DNA of 32,000 bases from Cylindrospermopsis raciborskii Cr2010 (GTDB lineage: Bacteria; Cyanobacteriota; Cyanobacteriia; Cyanobacteriales; Nostocaceae), in contig NZ_CP065936.1 of the NCBI RefSeq assembly GCF_003367075.2, forward strand, positions 480,001 through 512,000. The letters run 5' to 3'. A model generated the notes under the pieces. That model had not been told where the DNA came from, ran no database searches, and saw only the letters and a program-made list of their open reading frames with translations. This document shows, piece after piece, positions 4,662 to 27,681 of the stretch. The position numbers were made by a program, and so were the translations under genes. How positions within the stretch are numbered: the stretch's first letter is position 1; each line of letters begins with the position of its first letter.

Positions 4662-5804
4662 TAGACATCTCCGGAAATAGCCAAAGCGTTACCAATACTA
4701 CTTTTTAAGGTGAGACACCCCAATACAAAAGTAGCTGACTGGTATGCTAAAATAAGCGTTAGAGATGCCTCTTGTTGGGAATTAACCAAAAGATAACACC
4801 TATGTGAGATAATTTATTTTTAGCCAAGTCCAAATCTTGATAACTAAAATAAGTAGGTTCCCATTCGGAAACGAACAAGTCCACAAATAGTCATGATTAC
4901 CTGTTCATACTTACTTGAATTTAATCGAAATCTTTCTTGTGCCACTCTGAATATTTTCACTACACGAATTAAATGTTCAACAAAAATTCGTTCGGAAGCT
5001 AACTCTTTATTTTTTTCTTTTTGTTCAGACGTTAATTCTTGGTTTTTAGGTTTTTTTGTCGGAGTTTTCATTAACTCCTCTCCTTGATAAGCTTTATCAC
5101 CACTAAATTTTTGTTTTTTATCAAATATATTTCTGGTTTCACGGAATAAATTTACATCACTTTTTGGACCAGGTTTACCCGCTACTACATCAACAATATC
5201 TTTACCATTTGGTAAAACGATTAGTTGACTTTTTCTAGTATGACAGGCTTTTTTACCTGAATAATATTTTTTTTGTTCTTGGTACTCTCCAGGTCTGTCT
5301 ATAGGCTGTTCATAGCTATCCACTATTAACTCAAATTCTGTTAATATTTCTTTAACGACTTCGTAATCACTGGAGTTTTTTTTTACCTGTTCTAGCAAAC
5401 TTGGTGGCAATAATTCTCCTATTATTGGCAACCAATAGTTAAAGATATCATTTGCAGTTGTTTCACTTACTCCAAATTGAATACCTAGTAGCTGAAATGT
5501 TGTTAACTGCCGTAAATATGTTAATGTTAAGATTATTTGCTCCGACGGTGATAATTTGGGTTTGCGCCCTCCACCGCCTTGAATAATTCGGGTTTTTTTT
5601 GATTCAACCAATTGTTGTTTCTGATGATGCAGTTTTATGGCTTTTTCCAAAAGTTGCTGTAACTGCTCATACTTCAGACCCAAAAAACGGTGTGATTCGT
5701 GAGGATTATTCTGGATATATTCAGATATGTTGCTCATAATAAGTTGCCAAAAATACCATTTCATATTATTTTATCACACTTTGATTCTTTTTCGGAGATG
5801 TCTA
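4662..5804 (-). mobile_element. IS5-family / Harbinger-like (DDE_Tnp_4-type) insertion sequence, copy 1, 1143 bp, apparently intact
   Basis: Terminal inverted repeats TAGACATCTCCGGAAA (4662) and TTTTCGGAGATGTCTA (ends 5804). A colinear 1143-bp second copy lies at 17311-18453. It is inserted inside an SDR unit: the flanks GGCGATTGCAT and TTACACTCC rejoin to the GCATTACACTCC seen at 7848-7860. Confidence 0.8.
4844..5764 (-). CDS. IS5-family (DDE_Tnp_4 / HTH_Tnp_4-like) transposase
   Basis: 306-aa ORF. N-terminal HTH region (SPSEQIILTLTYLRQLTTFQLLGIQFGVSETTANDIF). DDE region (LIVDSYEQPIDRP...YYSGKKACHT...SGDKAYQG...ASERIFVEHLIRVVK). The true start may be the internal MSNISEY (5737). Confidence 0.8.
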   Translation of the reverse strand: MKWYFWQLIMSNISEYIQNNPHESHRFLGLKYEQLQQLLEKAIKLHHQKQQLVESKKTRIIQGGGGRKPKLSPSEQIILTLTYLRQLTTFQLLGIQFGVSETTANDIFNYWLPIIGELLPPSLLEQVKKNSSDYEVVKEILTEFELIVDSYEQPIDRPGEYQEQKKYYSGKKACHTRKSQLIVLPNGKDIVDVVAGKPGPKSDVNLFRETRNIFDKKQKFSGDKAYQGEELMKTPTKKPKNQELTSEQKEKNKELASERIFVEHLIRVVKIFRVAQERFRLNSSKYEQVIMTICGLVRFRMGTYLF

Positions 5805-5918
5805 TTACACTCCTCGTGGGCGATTGCGCAGCACTCCCTACGGGAGATCGCTCTCATATAGGTCTATTTTACAGCACTTCCCCTCTGATAAAAGATTGAC
5901 GGAAAACGTTTTCCGTCA

Positions 5919-6424
5919 GTGCATAAAGCCATTATTTCAAGGATTTTGGCGTATACTATTTGACTAAATGTAGTTATGCAATTTGGTATTGTGTTTTATC
6001 ATATTAAATCATAGCCATACATTTTTATCCAGACAATGAAATATACTTTTAAAGTTTTGCACCCGGTAACTTACAGTAGGGTATTCACAATAAAAATAAA
6101 ATATACATAATTTTTAGGGAATTATTTTGCTGTAAATGTGTTATAATAAGGGGGAATATAGGGGAAAATCGATATAAATATTTAAGTAATAAAAAAGAAT
6201 AATGATAAAAATAAAGACAAAAAGAACAGTAATTAACGAAGAGATTGCGAAGGTCAAGAAAAAACGCTGGAATGCCTATTATTTGGTTGGGAACCTCGTA
6301 GCCTTGTGGTGTAAAGGTTTCAGCCATTATTTTCAGGGTGCTGGAGGTGAAAAACAGAGAAATTTTGCTGACCTTCGCAAAGTGGGTCTAGACACCAGTC
6401 AGGGTAAGGGGTTAAAATGGTGGG
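5919..6424 (+). promoter_or_regulatory. Second copy of the CRISPR leader, reading toward the mini-array at 6425
   Basis: About 500 bp, AT-rich, colinear with the reverse complement of 22625-23130 at high identity. Contains an extended -10 (TGTTATAAT, 6139-6147). Confidence 0.6.
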
Positions 6425-6531
6425 GTCTTGACCTTCGCAAGAAGGAATTGGTAAAAGATTTTGTAGGAACGAACCCTAGAGTAGACTTCCATTGAGTCTT
6501 GACCTTCGCAAGAAGGAATTGGTAAAAGATT
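6425..6531 (+). CRISPR. Eroded CRISPR locus: two identical chimeric 36-bp repeats flanking one 35-bp spacer
   Basis: GTCTTGACCTTCGCAAGAAGGAATTGGTAAAAGATT occurs at 6425-6460 and 6496-6531. The first 24 nt equal the array repeat (reverse-complement orientation). The last 12 nt belong to the palindrome-containing dispersed element that continues at 6532. The spacer is 6461-6495. Confidence 0.6.
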
Positions 6532-6823
6532 GACGGTAAACGTCTTCCGTCAAAGGATAAATCAGTTATTTCAAAGGTTTTGGGATATTTGGAGGGCGAT
6601 TGCGAAGCACTCCCTTTGGGAGATCGCAAAGGACTAGCAACCTGGAGACTGTCTGTTGGGGAGACCGGGAATCAATTTTGGGTCTCAAAGCGAAAGTCGG
6701 TTTAAAACCGACTAGTTTTGTGATATTGTAAGTTGAGTTCAATAACTCAACATCCCTAGACAAACTATGTTATTTTAAATTAAACCGATTTAGTCAGTAC
6801 CAAAGTGAATGGGAGGTATAGAC

Positions 6824-7753
6824 ATGGTGAGGCAAATTGCACCAAAAACTCAACTGGGGGTGATAGAATCTAACATTAATCAGGGTGTGGAGACATCTGA
6901 AATTGTCTACCCAGAAAGTGATAACAAACCTATGGCGGATAACACTAGACAATTTACATGGATTGTCAAAATTAAGGAAAATTTAGAAATACTATTTAAG
7001 TCTAAGGCGGATGTGTTTGTGGCTGGGGACTTGTTTTGGTATCCAGTGAAGGGTAGTAACAAAATTAAACTAGCCCCTGACACCATGGTGGTGTTTGGGA
7101 GACCTAAGGGTCACCGGGGGTCTTATCGACAGTGGGAGGAGGATAATATTCCTCCCCAGGTGGTTTTTGAAATTTTATCTCCTAGTAATAATAGTACTGA
7201 GATGAATAGAAAAAAGCTCTTTTATCTGGAACATGGAGTGGAGGAGTATTATGTATATGATCCAGATAGGATTAGTCTAGAAGTATCCATTAGAGAAAAT
7301 AACTCATTTAAGGAGATTGAGAATTTTACCACTTGGACTAGTCCAAGATTGAAAATAAGATTTGACATGAGCCAAGATGAATTAGTCATCTATTATCCAG
7401 ATGGGAGTAAGTTTCTTAGTCCTGTAGAATTGAGTAATTATGCAGAACAAGAAACTCAACGTGCAGAACGTGAAAAATTGCTTAAAGAACAAGAAAGACT
7501 TCTCAAAGAGCAGGAAACTCAACGTGCAGAACGTGAAAAATTGCTTAAAGAACAAGAAAGATTTCTCAAAGAACAAGAAACTCAACGTGCAGAACGTGAA
7601 AAATTGCTTAAAGAACAAGAAAGATTTCTCAAAGAACAAGAAACTCAACGTGCAGAACGTGAAAGACTTCTCAAAGAGCAGGAACAAATAAAGTATCAAA
7701 CCTTGCTATCACAATTAAAAGCTAAGGGTATTGATATTACTGCACTCGAATAA
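6824..7753 (+). CDS. Uma2 family (DUF820) putative endonuclease, paralog 2, with about 3.7 coiled-coil repeat units
   Basis: Same motifs as paralog 1. The ATG at 6824 follows GGGAGG; the ORF track starts at 6809. The C-terminus carries ETQRAEREKLLKEQER(L/F)LKEQ x3 plus a partial unit. Confidence 0.85.
   Translation: MVRQIAPKTQLGVIESNINQGVETSEIVYPESDNKPMADNTRQFTWIVKIKENLEILFKSKADVFVAGDLFWYPVKGSNKIKLAPDTMVVFGRPKGHRGSYRQWEEDNIPPQVVFEILSPSNNSTEMNRKKLFYLEHGVEEYYVYDPDRISLEVSIRENNSFKEIENFTTWTSPRLKIRFDMSQDELVIYYPDGSKFLSPVELSNYAEQETQRAEREKLLKEQERLLKEQETQRAEREKLLKEQERFLKEQETQRAEREKLLKEQERFLKEQETQRAERERLLKEQEQIKYQTLLSQLKAKGIDITALE
7451..7681 (+). repeat. In-frame 63-bp tandem repeat (3 full units plus a 42-bp partial) inside Uma2 paralog 2
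   Basis: GAAACTCAACGTGCAGAACGTGAAAAATTGCTTAAAGAACAAGAAAGATTTCTCAAAGAACAA is repeated head-to-tail with 1-3 substitutions per unit. Confidence 0.9.
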
Positions 7754-8209
7754 ACTATCACCTGCACCAGAATACCCTTAGGAGGTTTTTAAAAACTGGA
7801 GTTTATACTAAAGAGAAGAGCGATTGCGCAGCACTCGCTACGCGAGATCGCATTACACTCCCGACGGGAGATCGCGAGGCACCACTTACTACCTGAAATA
7901 CCATGAGAAAGGAGAGTTGGGCTAAATACGCGAGGTAAGACTAGGTAAACTATGCAAGGGAGGGAAAAACATCCCCACTTCACAACCCCATTGTTCCCAA
8001 CCTCCCAGTAATGGTAGTTGACCCTTTGATGCGTAAAGTGACGATAAATCATCATAATAAAGACTAATAATACTATTATAAGATAGCTAATATCCGTTAT
8101 GCCTCCATCCTGTTCTGTCACTCGCTTTCAGTATGTTCTGGAAAATTGTGTGGGACATGGTAGCATAGACCTCGGGTAATTTGGCAAAAGACTAATTAAT
8201 ATGAAATAT

Positions 8210-8323
8210 GTCTCGACCTTCGTAAGAAGGAATAGGTATTGCGACTGCTTGTACAACTAAAGAGGTATTTGATTGTTTTACAGCTACATCTTGACCTTCG
8301 TAAGAAGGAATAAGTATTGCGAC
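8210..8323 (+). CRISPR. Degenerate two-repeat mini-array, copy A
   Basis: GTCTCGACCTTCGTAAGAAGGAATAGGTATTGCGAC (8210-8245), a 42-bp spacer, then ATCTTGACCTTCGTAAGAAGGAATAAGTATTGCGAC (8288-8323). Each has 2-3 mismatches to the array repeat. The exact reverse complement, with the same spacer, lies at 23604-23717. Confidence 0.5.
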
Positions 8324-8410
8324 CTGGTAGATACTGGGTTGGATTCTGCCCTCGCACCCTGGTTCGGAAGCATTTCCCTTGCGAATTTCCTAGGGTTCGT
8401 CTTCCCCCTA

Positions 8411-8553
8411 TGAGCGATTGCGAAGCACTCCCTACGGGCGATTGCGAAGCACTCGCTACGCGAGATCGCTCTTAGAGATTATCCCCCTAGTTCCTTCTCA
8501 AGGGAAAAACTTGAATATGCTGAAGGGCGATTGCGAGATCGCATTTATAGGAG
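8411..8553. repeat. SDR cluster (24-nt GCGATTGCGAAGCACTCCCTACGG-type units plus a TTCTCAAGGGAAAAA unit)
   Basis: Tandem and adjacent copies of repeat units seen at more than 10 other places in the window. Confidence 0.7.
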
Positions 8554-8565
8554 GGGGTAGGTAAG

Positions 8566-8645
8566 GGGGGTAAACTTTTGGCAGGGATGAAACCAAATCG
8601 AAAAAAGAAGGGAACATCACCGGGACAAGCTTTAGCTCTTTTGAA
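8566..8645 (+). pseudogene. Short internal fragment of a RAYT gene
   Basis: Translates to KLLAGMKPNRKKKGTSPGQALALL, matching residues about 196-220 of the intact RAYTs (SKLLAGMKPNQKKKGTSPGQLKLF). Nothing else of the gene is present. Confidence 0.5.
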
Positions 8646-8845
8646 GGGATAAGCATAATCTTCACCTCATCCCAAATCAAAAATGTCGTACATATCGCGG
8701 ATTAGCTTATGAGATAGCTTACCAACTAGATTTGATTTATTCTATTAGGTTTCCCGATTGCCACTCATCATTCATTGACAAATGTAAGGAAAACTCTTTG
8801 AGTGAAATTTGTCCGGAAATTCGATCGCTTTGGCAATAAAAATAT

Positions 8846-9391
8846 CTATGATTGCATCAATTTCACAAACCCTGGTGCCACGATCGCGAGAACTGCTAAC
8901 ACTTCTGGAACTGTCAGTGGTGGGTCGTCGAGGTCGCCAGCTTGTTCGCTCAAAATTTCCATCATCAGCGTGGGATTCAAGTAGAAGAGATGGGTCAGAA
9001 ACTCATCTGGGGTTTGAGCCTCAACCCCAAACGGTTCTAATGTTTGTTTGGGAAAGTCCTTGATGTTGCTGGTGACAATTACTTGAGATCGAGACATCAC
9101 CGCTGCAGCTAAGACATGGCGGTCTTTCTCATCGTTAGTCATGGCAGGGATGAGTACTTCAAACCCTCGCACATTAGCTTCGGCGAAAAACCGATTCATT
9201 TGGTCGATCAGATCTTGAGCATCTTCGGGACTGGTCATTCCTCTCTTGACCAAATTGCGCCTCACTTCGTCTAAGATTTCGTCGCTCCAGTGCAGCCGAT
9301 ACATCCCTTTTTCGACAGCGCGGAGGAGCGTATCTCTCAAGGTGGCAGGAATTAGGACACAGGCATCCAAAACTACTCCAAAAGATGACAA
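8846..9391 (-). CDS. PIN-domain protein (VapC-like toxin, PIN_3 type)
   Basis: N-terminal VVLDACVLIP (first acidic PIN residue), DEKDRHVLAAA and IVTSNIKDF motifs. It lies 13 bp downstream of, and is co-oriented with, an HTH gene. Confidence 0.75.
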   Translation of the reverse strand: MSSFGVVLDACVLIPATLRDTLLRAVEKGMYRLHWSDEILDEVRRNLVKRGMTSPEDAQDLIDQMNRFFAEANVRGFEVLIPAMTNDEKDRHVLAAAVMSRSQVIVTSNIKDFPKQTLEPFGVEAQTPDEFLTHLFYLNPTLMMEILSEQAGDLDDPPLTVPEVLAVLAIVAPGFVKLMQS

Positions 9392-10319: not shown

Positions 10320-11265
10320 CGAGTGCAGTAATATCAATACCCTTAGCTTTTAATTGTGATAGCAAGGTTTGATACTTTATTTGTTCCTGCTCTTTAAGCA
10401 ATTTTTCACTTTCTGCACGTTGAGTTTCTTGTTCTTTAAGCAATTTTTCACGTTCTGCACGTTGAGTTTCCTGCTCTTTGAGAAGTCTTTCACGTTCTGC
10501 ACGTTGAGTTTCTTGTTCTTTAAGCAATTTTTCACGTTCTGCACGTTGAGTTTCCTGCTCTTTGAGAAGTCTTTCACGTTCTGTACGTTGAGTTTCCTGC
10601 TCTTTAAGCAATTTTTCACGTTCTGCACGTTGAGTTTCTTGTTCTGCATAATTACTCAATTCTACAGGACTAAGAAACTTACTCCCATCTGGATAATAGA
10701 TGACTAATTCATCTTGGCTCATGTCAAATCTTATTTTCAATCTTGGACTAGTCCAAGTGGTAAAATTCTCAATCTCCTTAAATGAGTTATTTTCTCTAAT
10801 GGATACTTCTAGACTAATCCTATCTGGATCATATACATAATACTCCTCCACTCCATGTTCCAGATAAAAGAGCTTTTTTCTATCCATCTCAGTATTATTA
10901 TTACTAGGAGATAAAATTTCAAACACCACCTGGGGAGGAATATTATCCTCCTCCCACTGTCGATAAGACCCCCGGTGACCCTTAGGTCTCCCAAACACCA
11001 CCATGGTGTCAGGGGCTAGTTTAATTTTGTTGCTACCCTCTACTGGATACCAAAATAAGTCCCCAGCTACAAACACATCTAGGTTAGACTTAAATAGTAT
11101 TTCTAAATTTTCCTTAATTTTGACAATCCATGTAAATTGTCTAGTGTTATCCGCCATAGGTTTATTATCACTTTCTGGGTAGACAATTTTAGGCGTGTCC
11201 ACACCCTGATTAGTGTTAGATTTTATCACCCCCAGTTGAGTTTTTGGTGCAATTTGCCTCACCAT
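10306..11265 (-). CDS. Uma2 family (DUF820) putative endonuclease, paralog 3, with six coiled-coil repeat units and an IS-derived C-terminal end
   Basis: Same motifs as paralogs 1 and 2. The ATG at 11265 follows GGGAGG; the ORF track starts at 11280. Carries ETQRAEREKLLKEQ x6. The last 3 codons and the stop come from the IS1 fragment. Confidence 0.85.
   Translation of the reverse strand: MVRQIAPKTQLGVIKSNTNQGVDTPKIVYPESDNKPMADNTRQFTWIVKIKENLEILFKSNLDVFVAGDLFWYPVEGSNKIKLAPDTMVVFGRPKGHRGSYRQWEEDNIPPQVVFEILSPSNNNTEMDRKKLFYLEHGVEEYYVYDPDRISLEVSIRENNSFKEIENFTTWTSPRLKIRFDMSQDELVIYYPDGSKFLSPVELSNYAEQETQRAEREKLLKEQETQRTERERLLKEQETQRAEREKLLKEQETQRAERERLLKEQETQRAEREKLLKEQETQRAESEKLLKEQEQIKYQTLLSQLKAKGIDITALESMK
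10387..10638 (-). repeat. In-frame 42-bp tandem repeat x6 inside Uma2 paralog 3
   Basis: CTGCTCTTT(A/G)AG(C/A)A(A/G)T(T/C)TTTCACGTTCTGCACGTTGAGTTTC is repeated six times head-to-tail. Confidence 0.9.
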
Positions 11266-14118: not shown

Positions 14119-15258
14119 ATGAACCGCAAAAAACTTACCCAACTAATCACTATTGCAATTCTTGTCACCTTTATTACCATATTCTATCCATTTATTACTA
14201 TTGCCCTAACTACCAAAGAAATCGGCGCGATCGCTGAAAGGGTGACTGTTCGCCTTAGCGGTCCCGACCAAGGTTCAGGTGTAATTATCAATAAAAATGG
14301 TAACACTTACACAGTATTAACCAATTCCCATGTTTTTCAGTATAAAGGCGCATTTGAAATTATCACCTACGATGGGAGAAAATACCAATCAAATAACGTA
14401 ACAGAAATACCTAATCTTGATTTAGCCACCCTTCAATTTAACAGTGACCAAGAATATCAAGTAGTGGCATTGGGTGACTCTAATACTGTAACCATAGGGC
14501 AGGTAGTTTATATTAGTGGGTTTCCTTCTAAACAAGACTTTACCTTTAGATTTGATGGAATCTCCCGGATTTTAAAAAAACCAAGAGACGGGGGATATAG
14601 CTTGGTATATAGAATAGGAGCATTAAAAGGAATGAGTGGAGGTCCCATCCTAGATGAGAATGGTAAATTAGTAGGTATTCATGGGCTAACCCACAGTCAA
14701 AGCCTAGGAGATGGACGCGGTACACCGGAAGAATATGGAATTCCACTTCAGACCTTTTTAAATGCACCACCCCCCACACCGAGCAGGTACACAAGATTAG
14801 AAACCCTATTAAAAGCTCAAAACTTTAGAGAAGCAGATGAAGAAACAGACAGAGTAATGTTAGCAGTAGCTAACAGACAAAGCGAGGGTTGGTTGAGAAT
14901 AGAAGATGCAGAAAATTTTCCCTGTCAAGAATTGCGCACCATTGATAATCTGTGGTTAAAATATAGTCAGGGTAAATTTGGTATATCTGTCCAACAAGAA
15001 ATATACAAAAACCTGGGGGGAACAAAACAATTTGATGTGAATGTATGGAGATCCTTCGGAGACAGGGTAGGATGGAGAAAACAAGGTTCATGGCTCGATT
15101 ACAAAGATTTAAACTTTTCATTATCCGCACCAACGGGTCAACTCCCTTTGTATCGGATGATATTTATCAGTATCTTGATAAACTCCCTTACGGATATGGA
15201 TAGTCGGCTTCCCTCCAGGGCTTCCCTCCTGTCAAGACATGTAGAGTGTAACCCATAA
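14119..15258 (+). CDS. Trypsin-like serine protease (S1/PF13365-type) fused to a C-terminal GUN4-like domain
   Basis: N-terminal TM/signal segment. GSGVII...TNSHV (His), D in NLDLATL, GMSGGPILD (Ser) triad context. From about residue 224 the GUN4-like block YTRLETLLKAQNFREADEET...FPCQELRTIDNLWLKYSQGKFGISVQQ...GDRVGWR...APTGQLP. Confidence 0.8.
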   Translation: MNRKKLTQLITIAILVTFITIFYPFITIALTTKEIGAIAERVTVRLSGPDQGSGVIINKNGNTYTVLTNSHVFQYKGAFEIITYDGRKYQSNNVTEIPNLDLATLQFNSDQEYQVVALGDSNTVTIGQVVYISGFPSKQDFTFRFDGISRILKKPRDGGYSLVYRIGALKGMSGGPILDENGKLVGIHGLTHSQSLGDGRGTPEEYGIPLQTFLNAPPPTPSRYTRLETLLKAQNFREADEETDRVMLAVANRQSEGWLRIEDAENFPCQELRTIDNLWLKYSQGKFGISVQQEIYKNLGGTKQFDVNVWRSFGDRVGWRKQGSWLDYKDLNFSLSAPTGQLPLYRMIFISILINSLTDMDSRLPSRASLLSRHVECNP

Positions 15259-15340
15259 AGGTTTGATAGTATTGTTAACTTTTGTAAATAACAAGAAATT
15301 AACGAAACCTTGCTAGTTCCAGGGTTTCGGATACCTGGTA

Positions 15341-15492
15341 CTATTTATTTTTAGGATTAGGTGTATAACAATTTGCCTTGACAAATATTGTTGCTGCCTT
15401 TACTATTTCCTCACTAGTTATGTCTAACTCATCCCAAAAAAGCTTTAGCTGTCCTGGTGATGTTCCCTTCTTTTTTTGATTTGGTTTCATCC
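15341..15492 (-). pseudogene. RAYT 3' remnant (last ~50 codons)
   Basis: MKPNQKKKGTSPGQLKLFWDELDITSEEIVKAATIFVKANCYTPNPKNK* matches the C-terminus of the intact RAYTs. Homology stops at 15492, where an SDR array begins. Confidence 0.8.
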
Positions 15493-15508
15493 CTCTAGGG
15501 AGTGCAAT

Positions 15509-16050
15509 GCGATCTCCCGCAGGGTGTGCTGCGCAATCGCCCCTCCATACGTTCAGATTTTTCCCTTGAGAAGGAACCGGGGAGAACACTGAATGCGATC
15601 TCCCGCAGGGTGTGCTGCGCAATCGCCCCTCCATACGTTCAGATTTTTCCCTTAAGAAGAAACATGGAGAACCCTGAATACGATCGCCCGTCTTGAATGC
15701 TTTGAGATCGCCCCTCTATACATTCAGATTTTTCCCTTGAGAAGAAACATGGGGAGACCCTAAATGCGATCACTCAGAGGGAGTGCTGCGCGATCGCCCC
15801 TCAACACAGTCAGATTTTTCCCTTGAGAAGAAACACGGGGGGACCCTGAATGCGATCGCCCATAGGAATTGCTTCGCGATCGCCCCTCAACACATTCAGA
15901 ATTTTCCCTTGAGAAGAAACACGAGGAACCCTAAATGCGATCGCCCATAGGAATTGCTTCGCGATCGCCCCTCAACACATTCAGAATTTTCCCTTGAGAA
16001 GAAACACGAGGAGCCCTAAATGCGATCGCCCATAGGGAGTGCTTTACAAA
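15509..16050. repeat. Tandem array of a composite ~85-bp repeat, six units plus a partial seventh
   Basis: Unit starts at 15509, 15595, 15680, 15766, 15852, 15937 and 16022. Each unit is GCGATCNCCC-N-GCGATCGCCCCTC-AACACATTCAGA(T/A)TTTTCCCTTGAGAAGAAAC-N-CCCT(G/A)AAT, so it holds two HIP1-like cores. Confidence 0.85.
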
Positions 16051-16131
16051 CGCACCCATTTTAAGGCACTATATTTCAAAACTAACTGTTAAAATCTTAG
16101 CAAAGTTTAACCTACATGCAAAAATGCAATT

Positions 16132-17313
16132 ATGAATGATTTACCTCGTCAAAAACTCAAGGAAATTATTATTCAATATGGTCGCGACTTATGTGACAAT
16201 CCAAAACGTTGTGGAGCATTCCTGAATGACTACTGTGGACAATATAGACGAGAAATATTTTTGCTTATCAGTGCTTTAAAACAAGGTGTGGCAAAAGACC
16301 TACTCAATTCTGGCAACATTCCTGTTGAAGTGCTATTAGGTAGATTAATTAACCAAATGCAGAATGATTTGGGTTTAACAAAAGAAGCTGCCCAATATGC
16401 AGTTGAAAGTTGGGCCCAGGTTTTAGATAAGATGCCTCAAATAACCACACTACAAAAAACTAGAAGGGCTGAGCAGAAACAAGAAACAACATCTTCAGTA
16501 CCTACACCTAGCAGGTACACACAATTAGAAACCTTATTAAAAGCTAAAAAATTTAAAGAAGCAGATGAAGAAACAAGGAGTGTAATGTTAGCAGTAGCTA
16601 ACAGACAAAGCGAGCGTTGGTTAAGAGTGGAAGATGCGGAAAATTTTCCTTGTGAAGAGTTGCGCACCATTGACAATCTGTGGTTAAAATATAGTGAGGG
16701 TAAATTTGGTATCTCTGTCCAACAAGAAATATACAAAAACCTGGGCGGGACAAAACAATATGATGAGAGAAGAAACCTAAAATTAAAAACAATGAACCTT
16801 ATGGCTGAGCAGAAACAAGAAACAACATCTTCAGTACCTACACCTAGCAGGTACACACAATTAGAAACCTTATTAAAAGCTAAAAAATTTAAAGAAGCAG
16901 ATGAAGAAACAAGGAGTGTAATGTTAGCAGTAGCTAACAGACAAAGCAATGGTTATTTAAGAGTGGAAGATGCAGAAAATTTTCCTTGTAAGGAATTGCG
17001 CACCATTGATAATTTGTGGTTAAAATATAGTCAGGGTAAATTTGGTATCTCTGTCCAACAAGAAATATACAAAAACTTAGGCGGCACAAAACAATTTAAT
17101 TTAAAGGTATGGGAATCCTTCGGAGATAGAATTGGATGGAGGTCAGGAGGTTCATGGCTGTACAGTAGCGGCTTAAACTTTTCACTATCCGCACCAACGG
17201 GTCAACTCCCCACGTGTCGTGTCGGTGTTTGTTGCGTGTTAGTATTTGGGGGTTTTTTATGTGGGTTTGGGAAATGTGGGTGGTCTTCCCTCCTGTCAAG
17301 ACATGTAGAGTAG
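16132..17313 (+). CDS. Unknown N-terminal domain plus two tandem GUN4-like units (first unit truncated); stop codon supplied by an IS insertion
   Basis: A 336-bp internal duplication (16468-16759 ~ 16804-17095) repeats AEQKQETTSSVPTPSRYTQLETLLKAKKFKEADEET...GISVQQEIYKNLGGTKQ. The tail ...SSLLSRHVE* ends in a TAG that is the first 3 nt of the IS terminus at 17311. Confidence 0.75.
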   Translation: MNDLPRQKLKEIIIQYGRDLCDNPKRCGAFLNDYCGQYRREIFLLISALKQGVAKDLLNSGNIPVEVLLGRLINQMQNDLGLTKEAAQYAVESWAQVLDKMPQITTLQKTRRAEQKQETTSSVPTPSRYTQLETLLKAKKFKEADEETRSVMLAVANRQSERWLRVEDAENFPCEELRTIDNLWLKYSEGKFGISVQQEIYKNLGGTKQYDERRNLKLKTMNLMAEQKQETTSSVPTPSRYTQLETLLKAKKFKEADEETRSVMLAVANRQSNGYLRVEDAENFPCKELRTIDNLWLKYSQGKFGISVQQEIYKNLGGTKQFNLKVWESFGDRIGWRSGGSWLYSSGLNFSLSAPTGQLPTCRVGVCCVLVFGGFLCGFGKCGWSSLLSRHVE

Positions 17314-18752: not shown

Positions 18753-19300
18753 TGACGGAAAACGTTTTCCGTCAATCTTTTACCAAACGGGAACCGAACA
18801 TGAAATGAGCCTAGATATAAATTCTCCTTCCTGGAGGAGAGCGATCTCCCAAAGGGAGTGCTGCGCAATCGCCCTTCAGCATGTTCAAGTTTTTCCCTTC
18901 AGAAGGAATCGGGGGATAATCACTAAGAGCGATCGCCCGTAGTGGGTGTAATGCGATCGCCCGTAGGGAGTGCTTCGCAATCGCCCTACGGAATAAATAT
19001 TGATTGAGATCCCCAGAAGCTTGTTACCCAAACTGCGATCGCCCCTTTATACATTCAGATTTTCCCCTTGAGAAGAAACCAGGGGCATTTCTAAATGCGA
19101 GATCCCGTAGGGAGTGCAAAGCGATCGCCTGTCCTCATGTTCAGTATTTTCCATTGAGAAGGAAGTAGAGACGATTCCCACAAGCGATCGCCCGGCAAAT
19201 ATCCTAAAAGCATTGAAATAACTGATTTATCTTTTGACAGAAAACGTTTTCCGTCACTATTTAACATAGATTTGGAAACGTCATATATCAGGCGATCGCG
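18753..19300. repeat. SDR / palindromic-element cluster
   Basis: Contains GACGGAAAACGTTTTCCGTC (perfect 20-bp palindrome) with its CAATCTTTTACCAAACGGGAACCGAACATGAAATGAGCCTAG arm. Also holds several GCGATCGCCCGTAGGGAGTGCTTCGCAATCGCC-type units and TTCCCTTGAGAAG units. Confidence 0.75.
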
Positions 19301-21241: not shown

Positions 21242-22624
21242 TTCGCAATACCTATTCCTTCTTGCGAAGGTCAAGACCGTCTTCACCGTTGAAGATGGTA
21301 ATCCTATAAAAAAGTCGCAATACCTATTCCTTCTTGCGAAGGTCAAGACCACCCTGGAGGACGGAGTGAATGTGGATGTCGTCTCTAAGTCGCAATACCT
21401 ATTCCTTCTTGCGAAGGTCAAGACCAGAGTGATGCCCTCAAACAAACACCTTCTAGAAACCTAGAGTCGCAATACCTATTCCTTCTTGCGAAGGTCAAGA
21501 CTGAGTTGGTTATCTCGATTGTTGCTGCAATTGTTTCAGGTCGCAATACCTATTCCTTCTTGCGAAGGTCAAGACAAGCTTAATTCCGCAATTAAGCTAG
21601 TTCTGGCAGAAGACCGTCGCAATACCTATTCCTTCTTGCGAAGGTCAAGACTATTCCTGAACCAAGACGGCAATGCTGTTAAAAACAAGTCGCAATACCT
21701 ATTCCTTCTTGCGAAGGTCAAGACTTAGAGGAGGTATAGAACTCTTCGAAAACGGTGGTGAGTCGCAATACCTATTCCTTCTTGCGAAGGTCAAGACGGT
21801 TGCCTCAGACTTTGAATACCTGTATGGTATTTAATTGTCGCAATACCTATTCCTTCTTGCGAAGGTCAAGACAATATGAGTCCTGGACACCCCAAGAGGT
21901 TACTACTTCTTGGTCGCAATACCTATTCCTTCTTGCGAAGGTCAAGACCCACCACCTCACATCTTTGACATCTTGTCAGTGTTGTGTGTCGCAATACCTA
22001 TTCCTTCTTGCGAAGGTCAAGACGGTACTGTCCTTTTTACACAACTACAGCCGTACCTCTGGTCGCAATACCTATTCCTTCTTGCGAAGGTCAAGACATG
22101 AACAATGGTGTTAGAGAGTCTTGGATAGATGGTCGCAATACCTATTCCTTCTTGCGAAGGTCAAGACCAGAGCGATTGATTGACCATCTAGAGGGGAATG
22201 GCTAGTCGCAATACCTATTCCTTCTTGCGAAGGTCAAGACTACCAATTGGTAAGGAGCAACCATGAAATGCTCATGGCAGCCGACCAGTTGTCGCAATAC
22301 CTATTCCTTCTTGCGAAGGTCAAGACTGTTTTCTGTTAGAGGCGCGGCCCCTAACAGTTTTAAGTCGCAATACCTATTCCTTCTTGCGAAGGTCAAGACA
22401 GAGCTGGCAGTTTATTGACATGACCCAAGGACAATGGGTGTCGCAATACCTATTCCTTCTTGCGAAGGTCAAGACCCACCAATCGTTTTTCAGCATTAAT
22501 CCCTCGTCTGAATTGTCGCAATACCTATTCCTTCTTGCGAAGGTCAAGACATTGTTAGAGGAATTGAGAGAGAGACTGAAAGATTGTCGTCGCAATACCT
22601 ATTCCTTCTTGCGAAGGTCAAGAC
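21242..22624 (-). CRISPR. CRISPR array: 19 x 36-bp repeats and 18 spacers of 34-41 bp (one of 50 bp); no adjacent cas genes
   Basis: Repeat starts at 21242, 21314, 21389, 21466, 21540, 21616, 21689, 21762, 21837, 21913, 21988, 22062, 22132, 22205, 22291, 22364, 22440, 22515 and 22589. Eighteen repeats are identical; the one at 21242 has T for G at its outermost base. All spacers are unique. The minus-strand call rests on leader position, the degenerate distal repeat and the ATTGCGAC 3' end. The hairpin position argues weakly for the plus strand. Confidence 0.97.
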
Positions 22625-23130
22625 CCCTCCATTTTAACCCCTTACCCTGACTGGTGTCTAGACCCACTTTGCGAAGGTCAGCAAAATTTCTCTGTTTTTC
22701 ACCTCCAGCACCATCAAAATAATGGCTGAAACCTTTACACCACAAGGCTGCGAGGTTCCCAACGAAATAATAGGCATTCCAGCGTTTTTTCTTGACCTTC
22801 GCAATCTCTTCGTTAATTACTGTTTTTTTTGTCTTTATTTTTATCATTATTCTTTCTTATTACTTAAATATTTATATCGATTTTCCCCTATATTCCCCCG
22901 TATTATAACACATTTACAGCAAAATAATTCCCTAAAAATTATGTATATTTTCTTTTTATTGTGAATACGCTACTGTAAGTTACTGGGTGCAAAACTTTAA
23001 AAGTATATTTCATTGTCTGGATAAAAATGTATAGCTATAATTTAATATCTTAAAATACAATACTAACTTACATAGCTACATCCAATTAAACAGTATACGC
23101 TAAAATTCTTGGAGTAATGGCTTTATGCAC
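22625..23130 (-). promoter_or_regulatory. CRISPR leader (AT-rich, about 500 bp) with a candidate extended -10 promoter
   Basis: It directly abuts the perfect repeat at 22589-22624 and is duplicated, with an attached repeat, at 5919-6424. TGTTATAAT lies on the minus strand at 22902-22910 and is conserved in both copies. Confidence 0.6.
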
Positions 23131-23522
23131 TGACGAAAAACGTTTTCCGTCAATCTTTTACCAACCGCGAACCGAACATGAAACGTGCCTAGAGGAGAGC
23201 GATCTCGCGTAGCGAGTGCTGCGCTATCTCCCGTAGGGAGTGCTTCGCAATCGCCCGTAGGGAGTGCTTCGCAATCCCCCTCCAAATATCCCCAAAACTT
23301 TGAAATAACTGATTTATCCTTTGACGGAAAACGTTTACCGTCAAAGTTTTACCAAATGGGAACCGAACATGAAATGAGCCTGGATATGAATTCTGCTTCC
23401 TGTAGCAAAGCGATCTCGCGTAGCGAGTGCTTCGCAATCGCCCGTAGGGAGTGCAATGCGATCTCCCGTAGGGAGTGCTGCGCAATCGCCCGTAGGGAGT
23501 GCTTCGCAATCGCTCATAGGGG
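23131..23522. repeat. SDR / palindromic-element cluster
   Basis: Two copies of the GACGNAAAACGTTTNCCGTC element (23132-23151, 23324-23343) with their arms. Also runs of the 24-nt CCGTAGGGAGTGCTTCGCAATCGC unit. The long ORFs here (for example 23185-23643) are translations of these repeats. Confidence 0.8.
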
Positions 23523-23603
23523 GAAGACGAACCCTAGGAAATTCGCAAGGGAAATGCTTCCGAACCAGGGTGCGAGGGCAGAATCCAACCCAGTATCTAC
23601 CAG

Positions 23604-23717
23604 GTCGCAATACTTATTCCTTCTTACGAAGGTCAAGATGTAGCTGTAAAACAATCAAATACCTCTTTAGTTGTACAAGCAGTCGCAATACCTATTCCTT
23701 CTTACGAAGGTCGAGAC
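23604..23717 (-). CRISPR. Degenerate two-repeat mini-array, copy B
   Basis: GTCGCAATACTTATTCCTTCTTACGAAGGTCAAGAT, a 42-bp spacer, then GTCGCAATACCTATTCCTTCTTACGAAGGTCGAGAC. This is the exact reverse complement of 8210-8323. It has the same orientation as the main array and lies about 470 bp upstream of its leader. Confidence 0.5.
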
Positions 23718-25100: not shown

Positions 25101-26387
25101 ATGAAGATAAACAAATTACATCTGTCAATTACCAGCATAGCAATTTTTGCATTAATAAACATACTGTGGATACCACAGTATACAATTGCATCTAAAAAGA
25201 ATAGTTCACAAAGAAGCAACTCAAGTCGTATGTCAAACAAAGCGACTTATCTTACTACGCCTTTCAATAACTCAACCAAAATACTACCAAATTTTCTTGG
25301 GCATGATCTTGAAGCCATTTCAAACGCGTTAATTAAAAGACAGGAGTCTTTGAAAAAGGATGAATTTGAAACTACACAAGCATTTAATCAAAGAGTAATC
25401 AAAGAAGGACTTAAACCAATACTTGGAACAATCAATGTTGATAGTACCTTAGCTTTTGTTCTGTCAGATAAGTTTGAGTCATCCTACAATGCTGATTTAA
25501 GTTTATTTCGTATAGAAATACCTAAAAGTGATTATACAGAATTTACGTGGAAGTCAAAGACATTTAACTACAGAACGTATAAAGCTTCTAATGCTTTTGG
25601 AGCTACAATAGATGTTAGTAGTTGGGATAGGGAATCATTTAGTATAAAGCCGGACAGGAAAAGTAACGAACAAACTATTACACTTAGAATAAGTTCTAAT
25701 TTAGCTAAAAAACTTAAAGAGAATTTTAGGATAATATTTATTTCCAAAATAGAAGGATACAGCCCTGTAAAAAGGCAAATAGGACGCTCTAATGCAACCT
25801 TTGATAACCCTTATAGTATATCATATTCTGATACTTCCTTAAATGTGAAGATATTAGAATTCAAGATTTTTGATAAAACAACTGGTAAAGTCTACTATTC
25901 TGGAACATTGTATCCACCAATCAATTACACAAAATTAGAAACCCTATTAAAAGCTCAAAACTTTAGAGAAGCAGATGAAGAAACAGCCAGAGTAATGTTA
26001 GCAGTAGCTAACAGACAAAGCGAGGGTTGGTTGAGAATAGAAGATGCAGAAAATTTTCCCTGTCAAGAATTGCGCACCATTGATAATTTGTGGTTAAAAT
26101 ATAGTCAGGGTAAATTTGGTATATCTGTCCAACAAGAAATATACAAAAACCTGGGGGGAACAAAACAATTTGATGTAAATGTATGGAGATCCTTCGGAGA
26201 CAGGGTGGGATGGAGAAAACAAGGTTCATGGCTCGATTACAAAGATTTAAACTTTTCATTATCCGCACCAACGGGTCACCTCTTTGTTGGTGGTGGGGTG
26301 GGGTGGGAAGGGGGTTTGTGGGGGAGGTGGGGAGGGGTGATGGGTAGTAGGAAGATCTTCCCTCCTGTCAAGACATGTAGAGTGTAA
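25101..26387 (+). CDS. Secreted protein: signal peptide, unknown ~250-aa domain and a C-terminal GUN4-like domain
   Basis: MKINKLHLSITSIAIFALINILWIPQYTIAS signal-like N-terminus. From residue about 276 the block YTKLETLLKAQNFREADEET... is nearly identical at the DNA level to the 14119 and 27682 genes. It ends in the alternative frame (...FPPVKTCRV*) of the shared 3' block. Confidence 0.75.
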   Translation: MKINKLHLSITSIAIFALINILWIPQYTIASKKNSSQRSNSSRMSNKATYLTTPFNNSTKILPNFLGHDLEAISNALIKRQESLKKDEFETTQAFNQRVIKEGLKPILGTINVDSTLAFVLSDKFESSYNADLSLFRIEIPKSDYTEFTWKSKTFNYRTYKASNAFGATIDVSSWDRESFSIKPDRKSNEQTITLRISSNLAKKLKENFRIIFISKIEGYSPVKRQIGRSNATFDNPYSISYSDTSLNVKILEFKIFDKTTGKVYYSGTLYPPINYTKLETLLKAQNFREADEETARVMLAVANRQSEGWLRIEDAENFPCQELRTIDNLWLKYSQGKFGISVQQEIYKNLGGTKQFDVNVWRSFGDRVGWRKQGSWLDYKDLNFSLSAPTGHLFVGGGVGWEGGLWGRWGGVMGSRKIFPPVKTCRV

Positions 26388-26476
26388 CCCATAAAGGTTT
26401 GATAGTATTGTTAACTTTTGTAAATAACAAGAAATTAACGAAACCTTGCTAGTTCCAGGGTTTCGGATACCTGGTA

Positions 26477-27229
26477 CTATTTATTTTTAGGATTAGGTGT
26501 ATAACAATTTGCCTTGACAAATATTGTTGCTGCCTTTATTATTTCCTCATTAGTTATGTCTAACTCATCCCAAAAGAGCTTTAGTTGTCCCGGTGATGTT
26601 CCCTTCTTTTTTTGATTTGGTTTCATCCCCGCCAAAAGTTTACTCCCCCAGCGGTTTTTTTCCACCTTTTTCGGTTGAGGACGATATTTTTGACAAAATC
26701 CTTTATAAATGCTTGCACACTCATCTAAAGTTTTCCCTAATGCTAAAAAGGCTGGATGCCATGTTGTTACCCCATCACTACCTAACCTCTCATGTACTCC
26801 ATAGTTACTAAAATCATAAAACATTCCCTGTTGTATTCCTGCTGCTTTAGGATTGCCGTGTATATATCTCAGCGTGTTTAATGCCCTTTTCTTATCTGAC
26901 ATGGCAAACCCCGTGCTGTGATACCTTTTTTCCCAAAAATGCCCTGTTCTATTCAGCATCTGATTAAAGCACAGTGCTGTATACCAATTTAACCAGTGCA
27001 TAATTTTAGGCAGATCTGAGGGCTGTAATGGTTCTATTAAATAATGTATGTGATTACTCATTAGACATAACCCATACATTCTAAAATTATACTTGTCAAT
27101 TGCTTTTTTTATTGCATAAATCAAGACCTGACGACATTCTAATTTAGTTAGTCTAAATTCCCGATTGTTACATCTGATTGTAATGTGATAGCAGTATCCT
27201 GCTTCTAATTTTCTTGGTTTTCGACTCAT
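26477..27229 (-). CDS. REP-associated tyrosine transposase (RAYT; IS200/IS605-like Y1 HUH transposase), intact copy 1
   Basis: HUH motif in LMSNHIHYLI and a catalytic Tyr region NTLRYIHGNP. 250 aa, identical in protein sequence to 29204-29956. Confidence 0.8.
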   Translation of the reverse strand: MSRKPRKLEAGYCYHITIRCNNREFRLTKLECRQVLIYAIKKAIDKYNFRMYGLCLMSNHIHYLIEPLQPSDLPKIMHWLNWYTALCFNQMLNRTGHFWEKRYHSTGFAMSDKKRALNTLRYIHGNPKAAGIQQGMFYDFSNYGVHERLGSDGVTTWHPAFLALGKTLDECASIYKGFCQKYRPQPKKVEKNRWGSKLLAGMKPNQKKKGTSPGQLKLFWDELDITNEEIIKAATIFVKANCYTPNPKNK

Positions 27230-27269
27230 AAAAATTTAAGACTGGGTTATTCTCAATATAAAGCTGAGA

Positions 27270-27545
27270 ATGTGCTGTCTCCCGTAGGGAGTGCTTCGCA
27301 ATCGCCTCTCAATACATTCAGAATTTTCCCTTGAGAAGGAATCGGGGGGAACACTGAATGCGAGATCCCCCTCCAAATATCCCAAAAACCTTGAAATAAC
27401 TGATTCATCCTTTGACGGAAAACGTTTACCGTCAATCTTTTACGAACCGGGAACCGAACATGAAACGTGCCTAGATGAGAGCGTGCCTTGCGATCTCGCG
27501 TAGCGAGTGCTGCGCAATCGCCTGTATGGAGTGCTTAGCAAGGAT
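27270..27545. repeat. SDR / palindromic-element cluster upstream of RAYT copy 1
   Basis: CCCGTAGGGAGTGCTTCGCAATCGCC, TTCCCTTGAGAAGGAA, GACGGAAAACGTTTACCGTC plus its arm, and GCGATCTCGCGTAGCGAGTGCTGCGCAATCGCC. Confidence 0.75.
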
Positions 27546-27681
27546 AACTCTTACCCAGGTTATCGGAGTCAAACTGAATGTGGCGCAAATAATGAATTCC
27601 CTGACTCCCTTTTATATGCTCCTTTTTCTGTTACCCTATTAAGATATGGATTATTACTTACCAAAGATAAACTGATTAAAC

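What the first reader, a model, noticed from the sequence alone, without database searches (positions are those of the whole stretch)
6425..6531. A chimeric CRISPR repeat was duplicated exactly 36 bp from the leader junction, a possible footprint of spacer acquisition after the array was destroyed
At the second leader copy the first repeat is GTCTTGACCTTCGCAAGAAGGAAT (24 nt of genuine repeat) fused to TGGTAAAAGATT. That added sequence is part of the dispersed palindromic element (...TTGGTAAAAGATTGACGGAAAACG...) which continues at 6532. This 36-nt chimera occurs twice and is identical both times. The two copies are separated by a unique 35-bp sequence, which is within the 34-41 bp spacer range of the main array. 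The second copy runs straight on into the rest of the dispersed element. The simplest reading has two steps. First, a deletion or recombination fused repeat 1 to the element. Then the adaptation machinery integrated one more spacer and copied 36 nt measured from the leader-repeat junction regardless of sequence, as a ruler mechanism predicts. This also independently identifies 5919-6424 and 22625-23130 as the leader side.
Basis: inference. Interest (0 to 1): 0.7.

Follow-up and report, generated by a model that had tools for sequence, protein, structure and literature searches.

The report
Spacers added at a chimeric CRISPR repeat
A spare copy of a CRISPR leader in the cyanobacterium Cylindrospermopsis raciborskii is joined to a repeat whose last third is unrelated DNA, yet related strains carry 0, 1 or 2 different spacers there, so the acquisition machinery still used this damaged site and copied a fixed 36 bases each time.

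Summary
Window 6425-6460 and 6496-6531 are identical 36-nt copies: 24 nt of genuine repeat plus TGGTAAAAGATT from a dispersed palindromic element. A unique 35-nt spacer separates them, and the second copy runs into the rest of the element.

The window comes from C. raciborskii Cr2010. The same locus forms an allelic series:
- Strain KLL07 has one chimeric repeat and no spacer. It differs from Cr2010 by only this 71-bp indel and one SNP over about 1.2 kb.
- MAG REEB494 has three chimeric repeats and two spacers unlike Cr2010's.

Copy number therefore varies with different spacers. That fits Cas1-Cas2 integration and excludes slippage.

The leader is homologous to the one beside csx18-cas1-cas2 and a type III-B cmr operon in KLL07 and in Anabaena cylindrica. 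It heads arrays of two unrelated 36-nt repeat families.

- The chimeric joint looks like the novel joint of a segmental duplication, not the scar of a destroyed array.
- A ruler anchored in the preserved first two-thirds of the repeat is not excluded.

Cas1 in Cr2010 itself could not be checked, and no protospacer was found. This is a natural example of a known mechanism in an untested system. Interest is moderate to high.

The parts
5885..5960 (+). Diverged copy (B') of the dispersed element at the upstream edge of the duplicated leader region. Its palindrome is 5898-5917.
5918..6424 (+). Second copy of the CRISPR leader. The conserved core is about 6226-6424.
   Evidence: 91.7% identical to the main leader over 637 nt (alignment). 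Homologous to the leader next to cas2 in KLL07 (L039) and in A. cylindrica (L025).
6389..6418 (+). Promoter-like site TAGACA-18-TAAAAT in the most conserved part of the leader, just before repeat 1.
   Evidence: This is a consensus match only; its function is inferred.
6425..6460 (+). Chimeric repeat R*, leader-proximal copy: 24 nt of repeat B plus TGGTAAAAGATT.
6461..6495 (+). Unique 35-nt spacer, absent from the KLL07 allele.
6496..6531 (+). Chimeric repeat R*, distal copy. Its last 12-13 nt are the remnant of the element's left arm.
6519..6595 (+). Element A', truncated on its left: TTGGTAAAAGATT, the palindrome 6532-6551, and the right arm. Intact copies lie upstream of the orthologous Uma2 gene in other genomes.
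6596..6627 (+). HIP1-type repeat unit (GCGATTGCGAAGCACTCCCTTTGGGAGATCGC) flanking the element.
   Evidence: family D19
6809..7753 (+). Uma2-family endonuclease gene downstream. It is part of the segment colinear with L001 5220-6859.
8210..8323 (+). Second copy of a degenerate two-repeat mini-array, a marker of the segmental duplication.
21242..22624 (-). Main array: 19 repeats of family B (36 nt) and 18 spacers of 34-50 nt. The terminal repeat ends ...GCGAA.
22551..22588 (-). Leader-proximal (newest) spacer of the main array. It matches Cylindrospermopsis phages.
   Evidence: 38/38 to Cr-LKS4 and 36/38 to CrV-01T
22625..23164 (-). Main leader, with element copy B at its upstream edge (palindrome 23132-23151, TTGGTAAAAGATT 23152-23164).
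23604..23717 (-). Degenerate two-repeat mini-array upstream of the main leader.

Best explanation
Step 1 (inferred). In an ancestor of strains Cr2010 and KLL07 and of MAG REEB494, an illegitimate recombination event joined two sequences. One was nt 24 of the leader-proximal repeat of a type III-B-associated array (repeat family B). The other was the left arm of a dispersed palindromic element lying upstream of a Uma2 gene. The crossover fell in the microhomology T..GGTA. The event was most likely the novel joint of a segmental or tandem duplication. The result was an orphan leader followed by one 36-nt position made of 24 nt of repeat plus 12 nt of element.

Step 2 (the allelic series is shown; the enzyme is inferred). 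The csx18-cas1-cas2 adaptation module is encoded elsewhere and acts in trans through the shared leader. It kept using this site. It attacks at the leader-repeat junction and again 36 nt downstream on the other strand. Gap repair then duplicates whatever 36 nt lie between. Cr2010 records one such event, the 71 bp at 6425-6495 or equivalently 6461-6531. REEB494 records two independent ones.

Conclusions. Second-site choice therefore does not need the native last 7-12 nt of the repeat or the native repeat-spacer junction. It is set by distance from the leader junction or from a motif in the preserved part of the repeat (hairpin CCTTC-GCAA-GAAGG, GAAG at positions 17-20).

The 8-nt type III crRNA tag (ATTGCGAC) is replaced by AAAAGATT. 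These spacers are therefore probably useless for interference. This rests on general knowledge of type III crRNAs and is inferred.
For: - The 36-nt copies are exact and stop at both ends.
- KLL07's syntenic allele has a single R* running into the same element. Over window 5821-6990 it differs only by the 71-bp indel and 1 SNP.
- REEB494 has 3 R* and spacers of 42 and 44 nt unlike Cr2010's. An ENA metagenome contig shares REEB494's leader-proximal spacer.
- Spacer lengths fall within the 33-52 nt seen in 404 canonical spacers.
- The leader is homologous to the one beside cas2 in KLL07 and in A. cylindrica pANACY.03, where the order is csx18-cas1-cas2-leader-array-cmr.
- The same leader heads 36-nt arrays of family A and family B, so the leader is the constant and the repeat varies.
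- Cas1-Cas2 is present in KLL07 (L039) and Cas1 in REEB494.
- Adaptation was recently active in Cr2010's lineage: the newest main-array spacer matches phages of this host, including one from Cr2010's own lake.
- Intact copies of the A' element lie upstream of the orthologous Uma2 gene, and locus 2 is a circular permutation of the GIHE-G1 order.
- Ruler-type second-site selection is established for types I-B, I-E and II-A.
Against: - Cas1 could not be found for Cr2010 itself. Its 3,757,845-bp contig is not among those carrying the four Cas1 variants looked up, and the genus is absent from genome contigs.
- None of the three R* spacers has a protospacer in phage, plasmid, IMG/VR or JGI collections, or in two complete Cylindrospermopsis phage genomes.
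- REEB494's two spacers share TAGAAA at their 5' ends. No such sharing occurs among 381 adjacent canonical pairs. One event may therefore have duplicated 42 nt rather than 36.
- No integration experiment exists for this Cas1-Cas2.
- KLL07's single-repeat state could be a secondary spacer loss.
Confidence: 0.85

Rival explanations
1. Replication slippage or unequal crossing-over produced a tandem 71-bp duplication with no involvement of Cas proteins.
For: Two identical 36-nt copies 71 bp apart. The region is full of tandem and dispersed repeats.
Against: - A tandem duplication would duplicate the intervening sequence too. Here the 35 nt occur once, and the second copy is followed by different sequence.
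- Related alleles differ in spacer sequence, not only in copy number.
- The unit starts exactly at the leader junction and has exactly the repeat length in at least 2 of 3 events.
Confidence: 0.03
2. A normal small array (leader-R-S-R...) lost its distal part by deletion into the terminal repeat. The upstream canonical repeats were then converted to the chimeric sequence by gene conversion, so the spacers are older than the chimera.
For: Terminal repeats are often degenerate. The leader copies show signs of exchange (L013 mosaic).
Against: - It needs conversion of 12-nt tracts flanked by unique spacers in three separate arrays.
- Cr2010's only spacer and REEB494's distal spacer differ, although they should be the shared ancestral one.
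- KLL07 has no spacer at all.
Confidence: 0.05
3. The R*-spacer-R* unit is a selected cr-like regulatory mini-array (CreA-type or similar) and not a by-product of adaptation.
For: Degenerate two-repeat units with partial repeats exist in other systems (own knowledge; repeat-like regulatory RNAs are listed). The leader carries a promoter-like site.
Against: The spacer is not conserved: it is absent in KLL07 and different in REEB494. No complementary target was found in the window or in 606 kb of related loci. The type III 5' tag is lost.
Confidence: 0.03
4. Assembly artefact in a repeat-rich region.
For: L013 is a 623-bp MEGAHIT contig with a mosaic leader.
Against: The chimeric repeat appears in four independent assemblies, two of them multi-megabase contigs of 3.76 Mb and 3.81 Mb.
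Confidence: 0.01

Closest known systems
Molecular-ruler repeat duplication during CRISPR adaptation (I-B Haloarcula hispanica, PMC4872114; I-E E. coli, PMC5039180; II-A S. thermophilus, PMC6895254; P. furiosus, PMC6698737)
   Same: Duplication starts at the leader-repeat junction and ends at a fixed distance, independent of the sequence at the cut site. Repeats mutated at the distal end are still duplicated. Altered repeats can give aberrant sizes, which may explain the possible 42-nt event in REEB494.
   Different: Those are laboratory mutants in type I and II systems. This is a natural mutant whose whole distal third is replaced by foreign DNA. It sits in a Nostocales csx18-cas1-cas2 / type III-B setting for which I found no integration data. 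The anchor, whether the leader junction or a mid-repeat motif, is not resolved here.
Neo-CRISPR arrays from non-canonical (off-target) spacer integration (Nivala et al. 2018, known to me only through citations; isolated arrays, Shmakov et al. 2020, cited)
   Same: A new array with a new repeat sequence grows away from cas genes, because the integrase copies a repeat-length stretch of whatever DNA it targets.
   Different: The site here is not a chance pseudo-leader. It is a true duplicated leader with two-thirds of a true repeat. Natural evidence elsewhere is described as circumstantial, whereas here an allelic series of 0, 1 and 2 spacers is seen.
Orphan arrays served in trans by a separate cas1-cas2-csx18 cassette in Nostocales (Anabaena sp. 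PCC 7120; bioRxiv 10.1101/2020.04.14.041012)
   Same: Many arrays with dissimilar repeats sit far from cas genes in one genome, alongside a cas1-cas2-csx18 cassette.
   Different: That work concerns Cas6 processing of intact repeats. It does not address acquisition at a damaged repeat.

Membership tests
CRISPR array extended by Cas1-Cas2 integration at the leader-proximal repeat | Direct repeats of constant length separated by unique spacers of system-typical length | tested here: met
   The repeats are 36 nt. Spacers are 35, 42 and 44 nt, against 33-52 nt in 404 canonical spacers.
CRISPR array extended by Cas1-Cas2 integration at the leader-proximal repeat | A leader homologous to that of a cas1-cas2-adjacent array lies directly upstream of repeat 1 | tested here: met
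CRISPR array extended by Cas1-Cas2 integration at the leader-proximal repeat | Strain-to-strain variation in spacer content, with a fixed distal end | tested here: met
   0, 1 and 2 spacers, all with the same distal joint into GACGGTAAACG.
CRISPR array extended by Cas1-Cas2 integration at the leader-proximal repeat | cas1-cas2 present in the same genome | tested here: inconclusive
   Cas1-Cas2 is present in KLL07 (L039), and Cas1 in REEB494 (MBU6345652.1). It was not found for Cr2010 by exact-sequence look-up, and the genus is absent from genome contigs.
CRISPR array extended by Cas1-Cas2 integration at the leader-proximal repeat | Spacers derive from mobile elements | tested here: not met
   No protospacer was found for the three R* spacers. 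The feature is met for the newest spacer of the canonical main array. Most spacers in any organism lack database matches (own knowledge).
Functional type III-B (Cmr) crRNA source | The repeat 3' end supplies the 8-nt 5' tag (ATTGCGAC in family B) | tested here: not met
   R* ends AAAAGATT. The hairpin CCUUC-GCAA-GAAGG is retained. The consequence for crRNA function is inferred.
Functional type III-B (Cmr) crRNA source | Transcription and processing of the array | not testable with these tools
   Only a promoter-like consensus match at 6389-6418.
Neo-CRISPR / off-target integration | Integration at a site that is not a genuine leader-repeat junction | tested here: not met
   The leader is genuine, and repeat positions 1-24 and 26-29 are genuine.
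Neo-CRISPR / off-target integration | Duplication of a repeat-length stretch that includes non-repeat DNA, founding a new repeat sequence | tested here: met
   12 nt of element DNA were propagated in 2 copies (Cr2010) and 3 copies (REEB494).
Slippage-type tandem duplication | Units identical including the inter-repeat segment, with copy number varying and 'spacers' identical | tested here: not met
cr-like regulatory mini-array (CreA-type) | A conserved spacer with a partial target in the host genome | tested here: not met
   The spacer is absent or different in relatives. No target was found in 606 kb. The whole genome was not searched.

The most novel reading that the evidence does not exclude
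Locus 2 shows a new CRISPR repeat family at the moment of its origin. In this Nostocales system the leader is the real integration signal. The integrase propagates whatever 36 nt follow it, so recombination next to a leader can create a new repeat, which acquisition then amplifies.

Repeat family B may itself be an older product of the same process. Its nt 2-16 are identical to a motif that occurs as an inverted pair in the conserved leader (6245-6259, with the shorter direct arm TGACCTTCGCAA at 6369-6380). That motif is also present in leaders heading family-A arrays.

Because R* lacks the type III tag, the array would act as a silent sink. It would record acquisitions that interference never filters.
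Probability: 0.3. Interest if true: 0.75.

Novelty: new variant of a known kind. Interest (0 to 1): 0.6.

Why it matters
Ruler-based repeat duplication and neo-array formation are known mainly from engineered type I and II systems. Evidence from natural genomes is described as circumstantial.

Here a natural mutant repeat, seen with 0, 1 and 2 spacers in related strains, shows that acquisition continues when the distal third of the repeat is foreign DNA. The setting is a bloom-forming cyanobacterium whose type III-B-associated csx18-cas1-cas2 module has, as far as I could find, never been tested.

Three things follow:
- It gives a concrete route by which new repeat sequences and orphan arrays arise.
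- It shows that adaptation can be uncoupled from interference.
- It offers a ready-made assay locus in KLL07, a culturable host with isolated phages.

Tried and rejected
- Exact scans for the 24-nt repeat core in genome contigs and metagenome contigs found nothing. A later Cas1 search showed that no Cylindrospermopsis genome is in genome contigs.
- Look-ups of the neighbouring Uma2 protein with two start codons found nothing. The psbU look-up and the leader 'ORF' used as a protein query were what worked.
- Protospacer searches were all negative: blastn against phages and plasmids, exact 25-27-mers in IMG/VR, a 22-mer in JGI metagenomes, and an ungapped scan of CrV-01T and Cr-LKS4 against shuffled controls.
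- An 11-nt match of the spacer at 23527-23537 and 8390-8400, and a 9-nt match to repeat A, are at chance level (E = 2.7 and 42).
- Rfam gave no family hit anywhere in the window.
- A tracrRNA or CAST homing-array reading was considered because the leader holds an inverted repeat-like motif. I dropped it: the window has no cas12k, tnsB or other cas gene, the repeat family sits beside cmr operons, and the spacer varies between strains.
- The leader 'ORF' (97 aa, annotated hypothetical protein) was considered as a real gene. It shows no third-codon-position bias across 21 homologues.
- Four Cas1 variants were looked up to locate Cr2010's cas1, without success.
- The papers by Nivala et al. 2018 and Shmakov et al. 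2020 are not held in the library.

Full report
**The observation**

- Window 6425-6460 and 6496-6531 are both GTCTTGACCTTCGCAAGAAGGAATTGGTAAAAGATT.
- Between them lies TTGTAGGAACGAACCCTAGAGTAGACTTCCATTGA (35 nt).
- After the second copy comes GACGGTAAACGTCTTCCGTC.

The flanking bases differ on both sides of the two copies, so the duplicated unit is exactly 36 nt. It begins at the base where the leader ends. The canonical repeat is GTCTTGACCTTCGCAAGAAGGAATAGGTATTGCGAC, also 36 nt. It occurs 19 times at 21242-22624 on the minus strand, with spacers of 34-50 nt.

The chimera keeps repeat positions 1-24 and, by chance, 26-29. The other 8 positions come from a dispersed element:
- Its 20-nt palindrome occurs at 7 places in the window against 0 expected.
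- Its left arm ends ...GGTTGGTAAAAGATT.
- The two leader copies align almost without gaps.

**Organism and setting**

The window has no cas genes. It holds psbU, psbA, GUN4-domain genes, Uma2 endonucleases, many transposases and a tyrosine recombinase.

The 97-codon reading frame across the leader is UJL34080.1 of Cylindrospermopsis raciborskii Cr2010. That strain comes from Reeuwijkse Plassen, the Netherlands, and is the host of phage CrV-01T.

The main array locus also lies on a plasmid of C. curvispora GIHE-G1, with only 4 repeats and different spacers.

**The decisive comparison**

Fetching contigs that encode the same PsbU gave the syntenic locus in C. raciborskii KLL07 (GCA_021650815.1).
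- KLL07 has the same leader and a single chimeric repeat running straight into the element, with no spacer.
- Over window 5821-6990 the two strains differ only by one SNP and the 71-bp indel.

Using the leader frame as a protein query found two further alleles.
- MAG REEB494 has three chimeric repeats and two spacers, of 42 and 44 nt. Neither resembles Cr2010's.
- A 623-bp ENA metagenome contig has the chimera followed by REEB494's leader-proximal spacer.

All alleles share the same distal joint. Copy number therefore varies with different spacers. That is the signature of spacer acquisition and the opposite of slippage. Because the spacers next to the joint differ between lineages, they were added after the chimera formed.

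**Which system**

The last ~200 nt of this leader recur in three other places:
- Directly downstream of csx18-cas1-cas2 and next to a type III-B cmr operon in KLL07, heading an array of a different 36-nt repeat, CCCCGCTTCCCTCTGGGAAGTGGAATCAATGGAAAC (family A).
- In the same arrangement on Anabaena cylindrica plasmid pANACY.03.
- Heading a 44-repeat family-B array beside a second cmr operon in strain CP073250.1.

Families A and B share little beyond length, a central hairpin and GAAG at positions 17-20. One leader therefore serves unlike repeats. This fits an integrase guided mainly by the leader and by distance.

A second Cas1 type present in some strains has no adjacent array. Anabaena 7120 likewise has many orphan arrays and an isolated cas1-cas2-csx18 cassette.

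**Is adaptation active?**
- KLL07 carries cas1-cas2 and REEB494 carries cas1.
- For Cr2010 I could not find cas1. Its contig is not among those carrying four exact Cas1 variants, and the genus is missing from genome contigs.
- There is indirect support. The leader-proximal spacer of Cr2010's main array (22551-22588) matches phage Cr-LKS4 at 38/38 and CrV-01T at 36/38, and CrV-01T comes from Cr2010's own lake.
- None of the three R* spacers has a detectable protospacer.

**How the joint arose**

Intact copies of exactly this element variant lie upstream of the orthologous Uma2 gene in GIHE-G1 and two other genomes. They have a full left arm...CTAGGCACGTTTCATGTTCGGTTCCCGG|TTGGTAAAAGATTGACGGTAAACGTCTTCCGTC....

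The correspondence with the GIHE-G1 plasmid locus L001 is as follows:

| Window | L001 | Identity or content |
|---|---|---|
| 6519-8120 | 5220-6859 | 95% |
| 8118-8445 | 7619-7946 | 98.8% |
| 8416-8535 | 8080-8199 | 97.5% |
| 5818-6524 | 8213-8923 | 88.5%; HIP repeat, element B, leader, repeat 1 |

Locus 2 is thus a circular permutation of the order element-Uma2-VWA-mini-array-...-leader-repeat 1. The degenerate mini-array is present twice in the window, at 8210-8323 and 23604-23717.

This is what the novel joint of a tandem or segmental duplication, or an excised circle, would look like. The crossover would lie in T..GGTA. No array needs to have been destroyed. I rate this origin at about 0.55. 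A deletion of a former array remains possible.

**Mechanism**

The best reading is Cas1-Cas2 integration with first attack at the leader-repeat junction and second attack 36 nt away. Gap repair then copies the intervening 36 nt. Ruler-type second-site choice is established in I-B, I-E and II-A systems.

The natural mutant shows that the native distal 7-12 nt and the native repeat-spacer junction are dispensable. It cannot tell a leader-junction anchor from a mid-repeat anchor, because the hairpin and GAAG motif are retained.

One irregularity stands out. REEB494's two spacers both begin TAGAAA. Among 381 adjacent canonical spacer pairs, none shares more than 5 nt at that end, and canonical spacers have no end motif. 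The second REEB494 event may therefore have duplicated 42 nt, R* plus 6 nt of the older spacer. That would make the new spacer a typical 36 nt. It would also suggest lower fidelity once the distal repeat element is lost, as reported for II-A.

**Consequence**

The repeat's last 8 nt, ATTGCGAC, is a typical type III crRNA tag (own knowledge). In R* it is replaced by AAAAGATT. Spacers stored here are therefore probably not usable by the Cmr complex. This is inferred and untested.

**Comparison with what is known**

The closest relatives are the laboratory ruler studies and the neo-CRISPR/off-target integration idea. This case differs in three ways:
- It is natural.
- It sits at a genuine duplicated leader.
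- It is documented by an allelic series.

I file it as a new variant of a known kind, of moderate to high interest.

Noticed in passing
window 6202-6495 (also 22847-22599 minus): The leader is annotated in public records as an 82-97-aa hypothetical protein (for example WP_236107328.1). Across 21 leader homologues, substitutions show no third-codon-position bias (57/48/54), so it is conserved non-coding leader DNA and the gene calls are spurious.
   Followed up: yes
window 6245-6259 and 6369-6380; L039 5581-5591 and 5704-5714: The conserved leader holds an inverted pair of a motif equal to the 5' half of repeat B. TTGCGAAGGTCAAGA is the reverse complement of repeat nt 2-16, and TGACCTTCGCAA equals nt 5-16. 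The pair is also present in leaders that head family-A arrays. It may be a binding site, or a trace of how repeat B arose.
   Followed up: partly
window 22551-22588 (minus): The newest spacer of the main array matches Cylindrospermopsis phage Cr-LKS4 (38/38) and CrV-01T (36/38). CrV-01T was isolated from the same Dutch lake as strain Cr2010. The other 17 spacers have no match in these phages.
   Followed up: yes
L140 39293-39622 (CrV-01T 89192-89521); L143 37627-38261 and 38936-39194 (Cr-LKS4): Both Cylindrospermopsis phages carry their own CRISPR arrays. In CrV-01T the repeat is GTTGGGAACGGGTGGAGAAGTTAGGTCAATGGGAAC, and one spacer is present twice. The Cr-LKS4 arrays were seen only as annotations. 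The targets were not examined.
   Followed up: no
window 5898, 6532, 18754, 19236, 23132, 23323, 27414: The dispersed element has a 20-nt perfect palindrome with conserved arms, nested among 24-nt HIP1-type tandem repeats. Read on the opposite strand it is a hairpin followed by AATCTTTTACC, which looks like an intrinsic terminator. The 12 nt grafted onto the repeat are the complement of that T-tract.
   Followed up: partly
window 8210-8323 (+) and 23604-23717 (-): There are two copies of a degenerate two-repeat mini-array (GTCTCGACCTTCGTAAG..., ATCTTGACCTTCGTAAG...AAGTATTGCGAC), 98.6% identical with their flanks. The same unit is in GIHE-G1 and two other C. raciborskii genome assemblies (L005, L007). 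It is an old, fixed relic upstream of the main leader.
   Followed up: partly
L012 3756-3877: The two spacers of the REEB494 chimeric array both start TAGAAA. The longest shared 5' prefix among 381 adjacent canonical spacer pairs is 5 nt. A 42-nt duplication, a slipped second cut, is possible.
   Followed up: partly
L013 1-539: The 623-bp metagenome contig combines the chimeric repeat and REEB494's spacer with a leader that is main-locus type at most diagnostic positions. It is either a recombinant between leader copies or a chimeric short-read assembly.
   Followed up: partly
L016/L014/L015/L017 10001-10300: A third leader copy, with an internal deletion, sits with two family-B repeats immediately downstream of a BREX operon (PglZ, BrxL) in KLL07 and other strains.
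   Followed up: no
window 15508-16032, 18840-19192, 27273-27369; 10342-10677; 7381-7684: There are arrays of 85-86-nt tandem repeats built from HIP1-type units. Inside the Uma2-family genes there are 42-nt and 21-nt tandem repeats, probably coiled-coil repeats.
   Followed up: no
window 14119-17313, 25101-29037; 26477-27229 and 29204-29956: Five paralogous GUN4-domain segments are fused to trypsin-like or protein-kinase domains. Two identical IS200-type Y1 transposase genes are also present. The region is a patchwork of segmental duplications.
   Followed up: no
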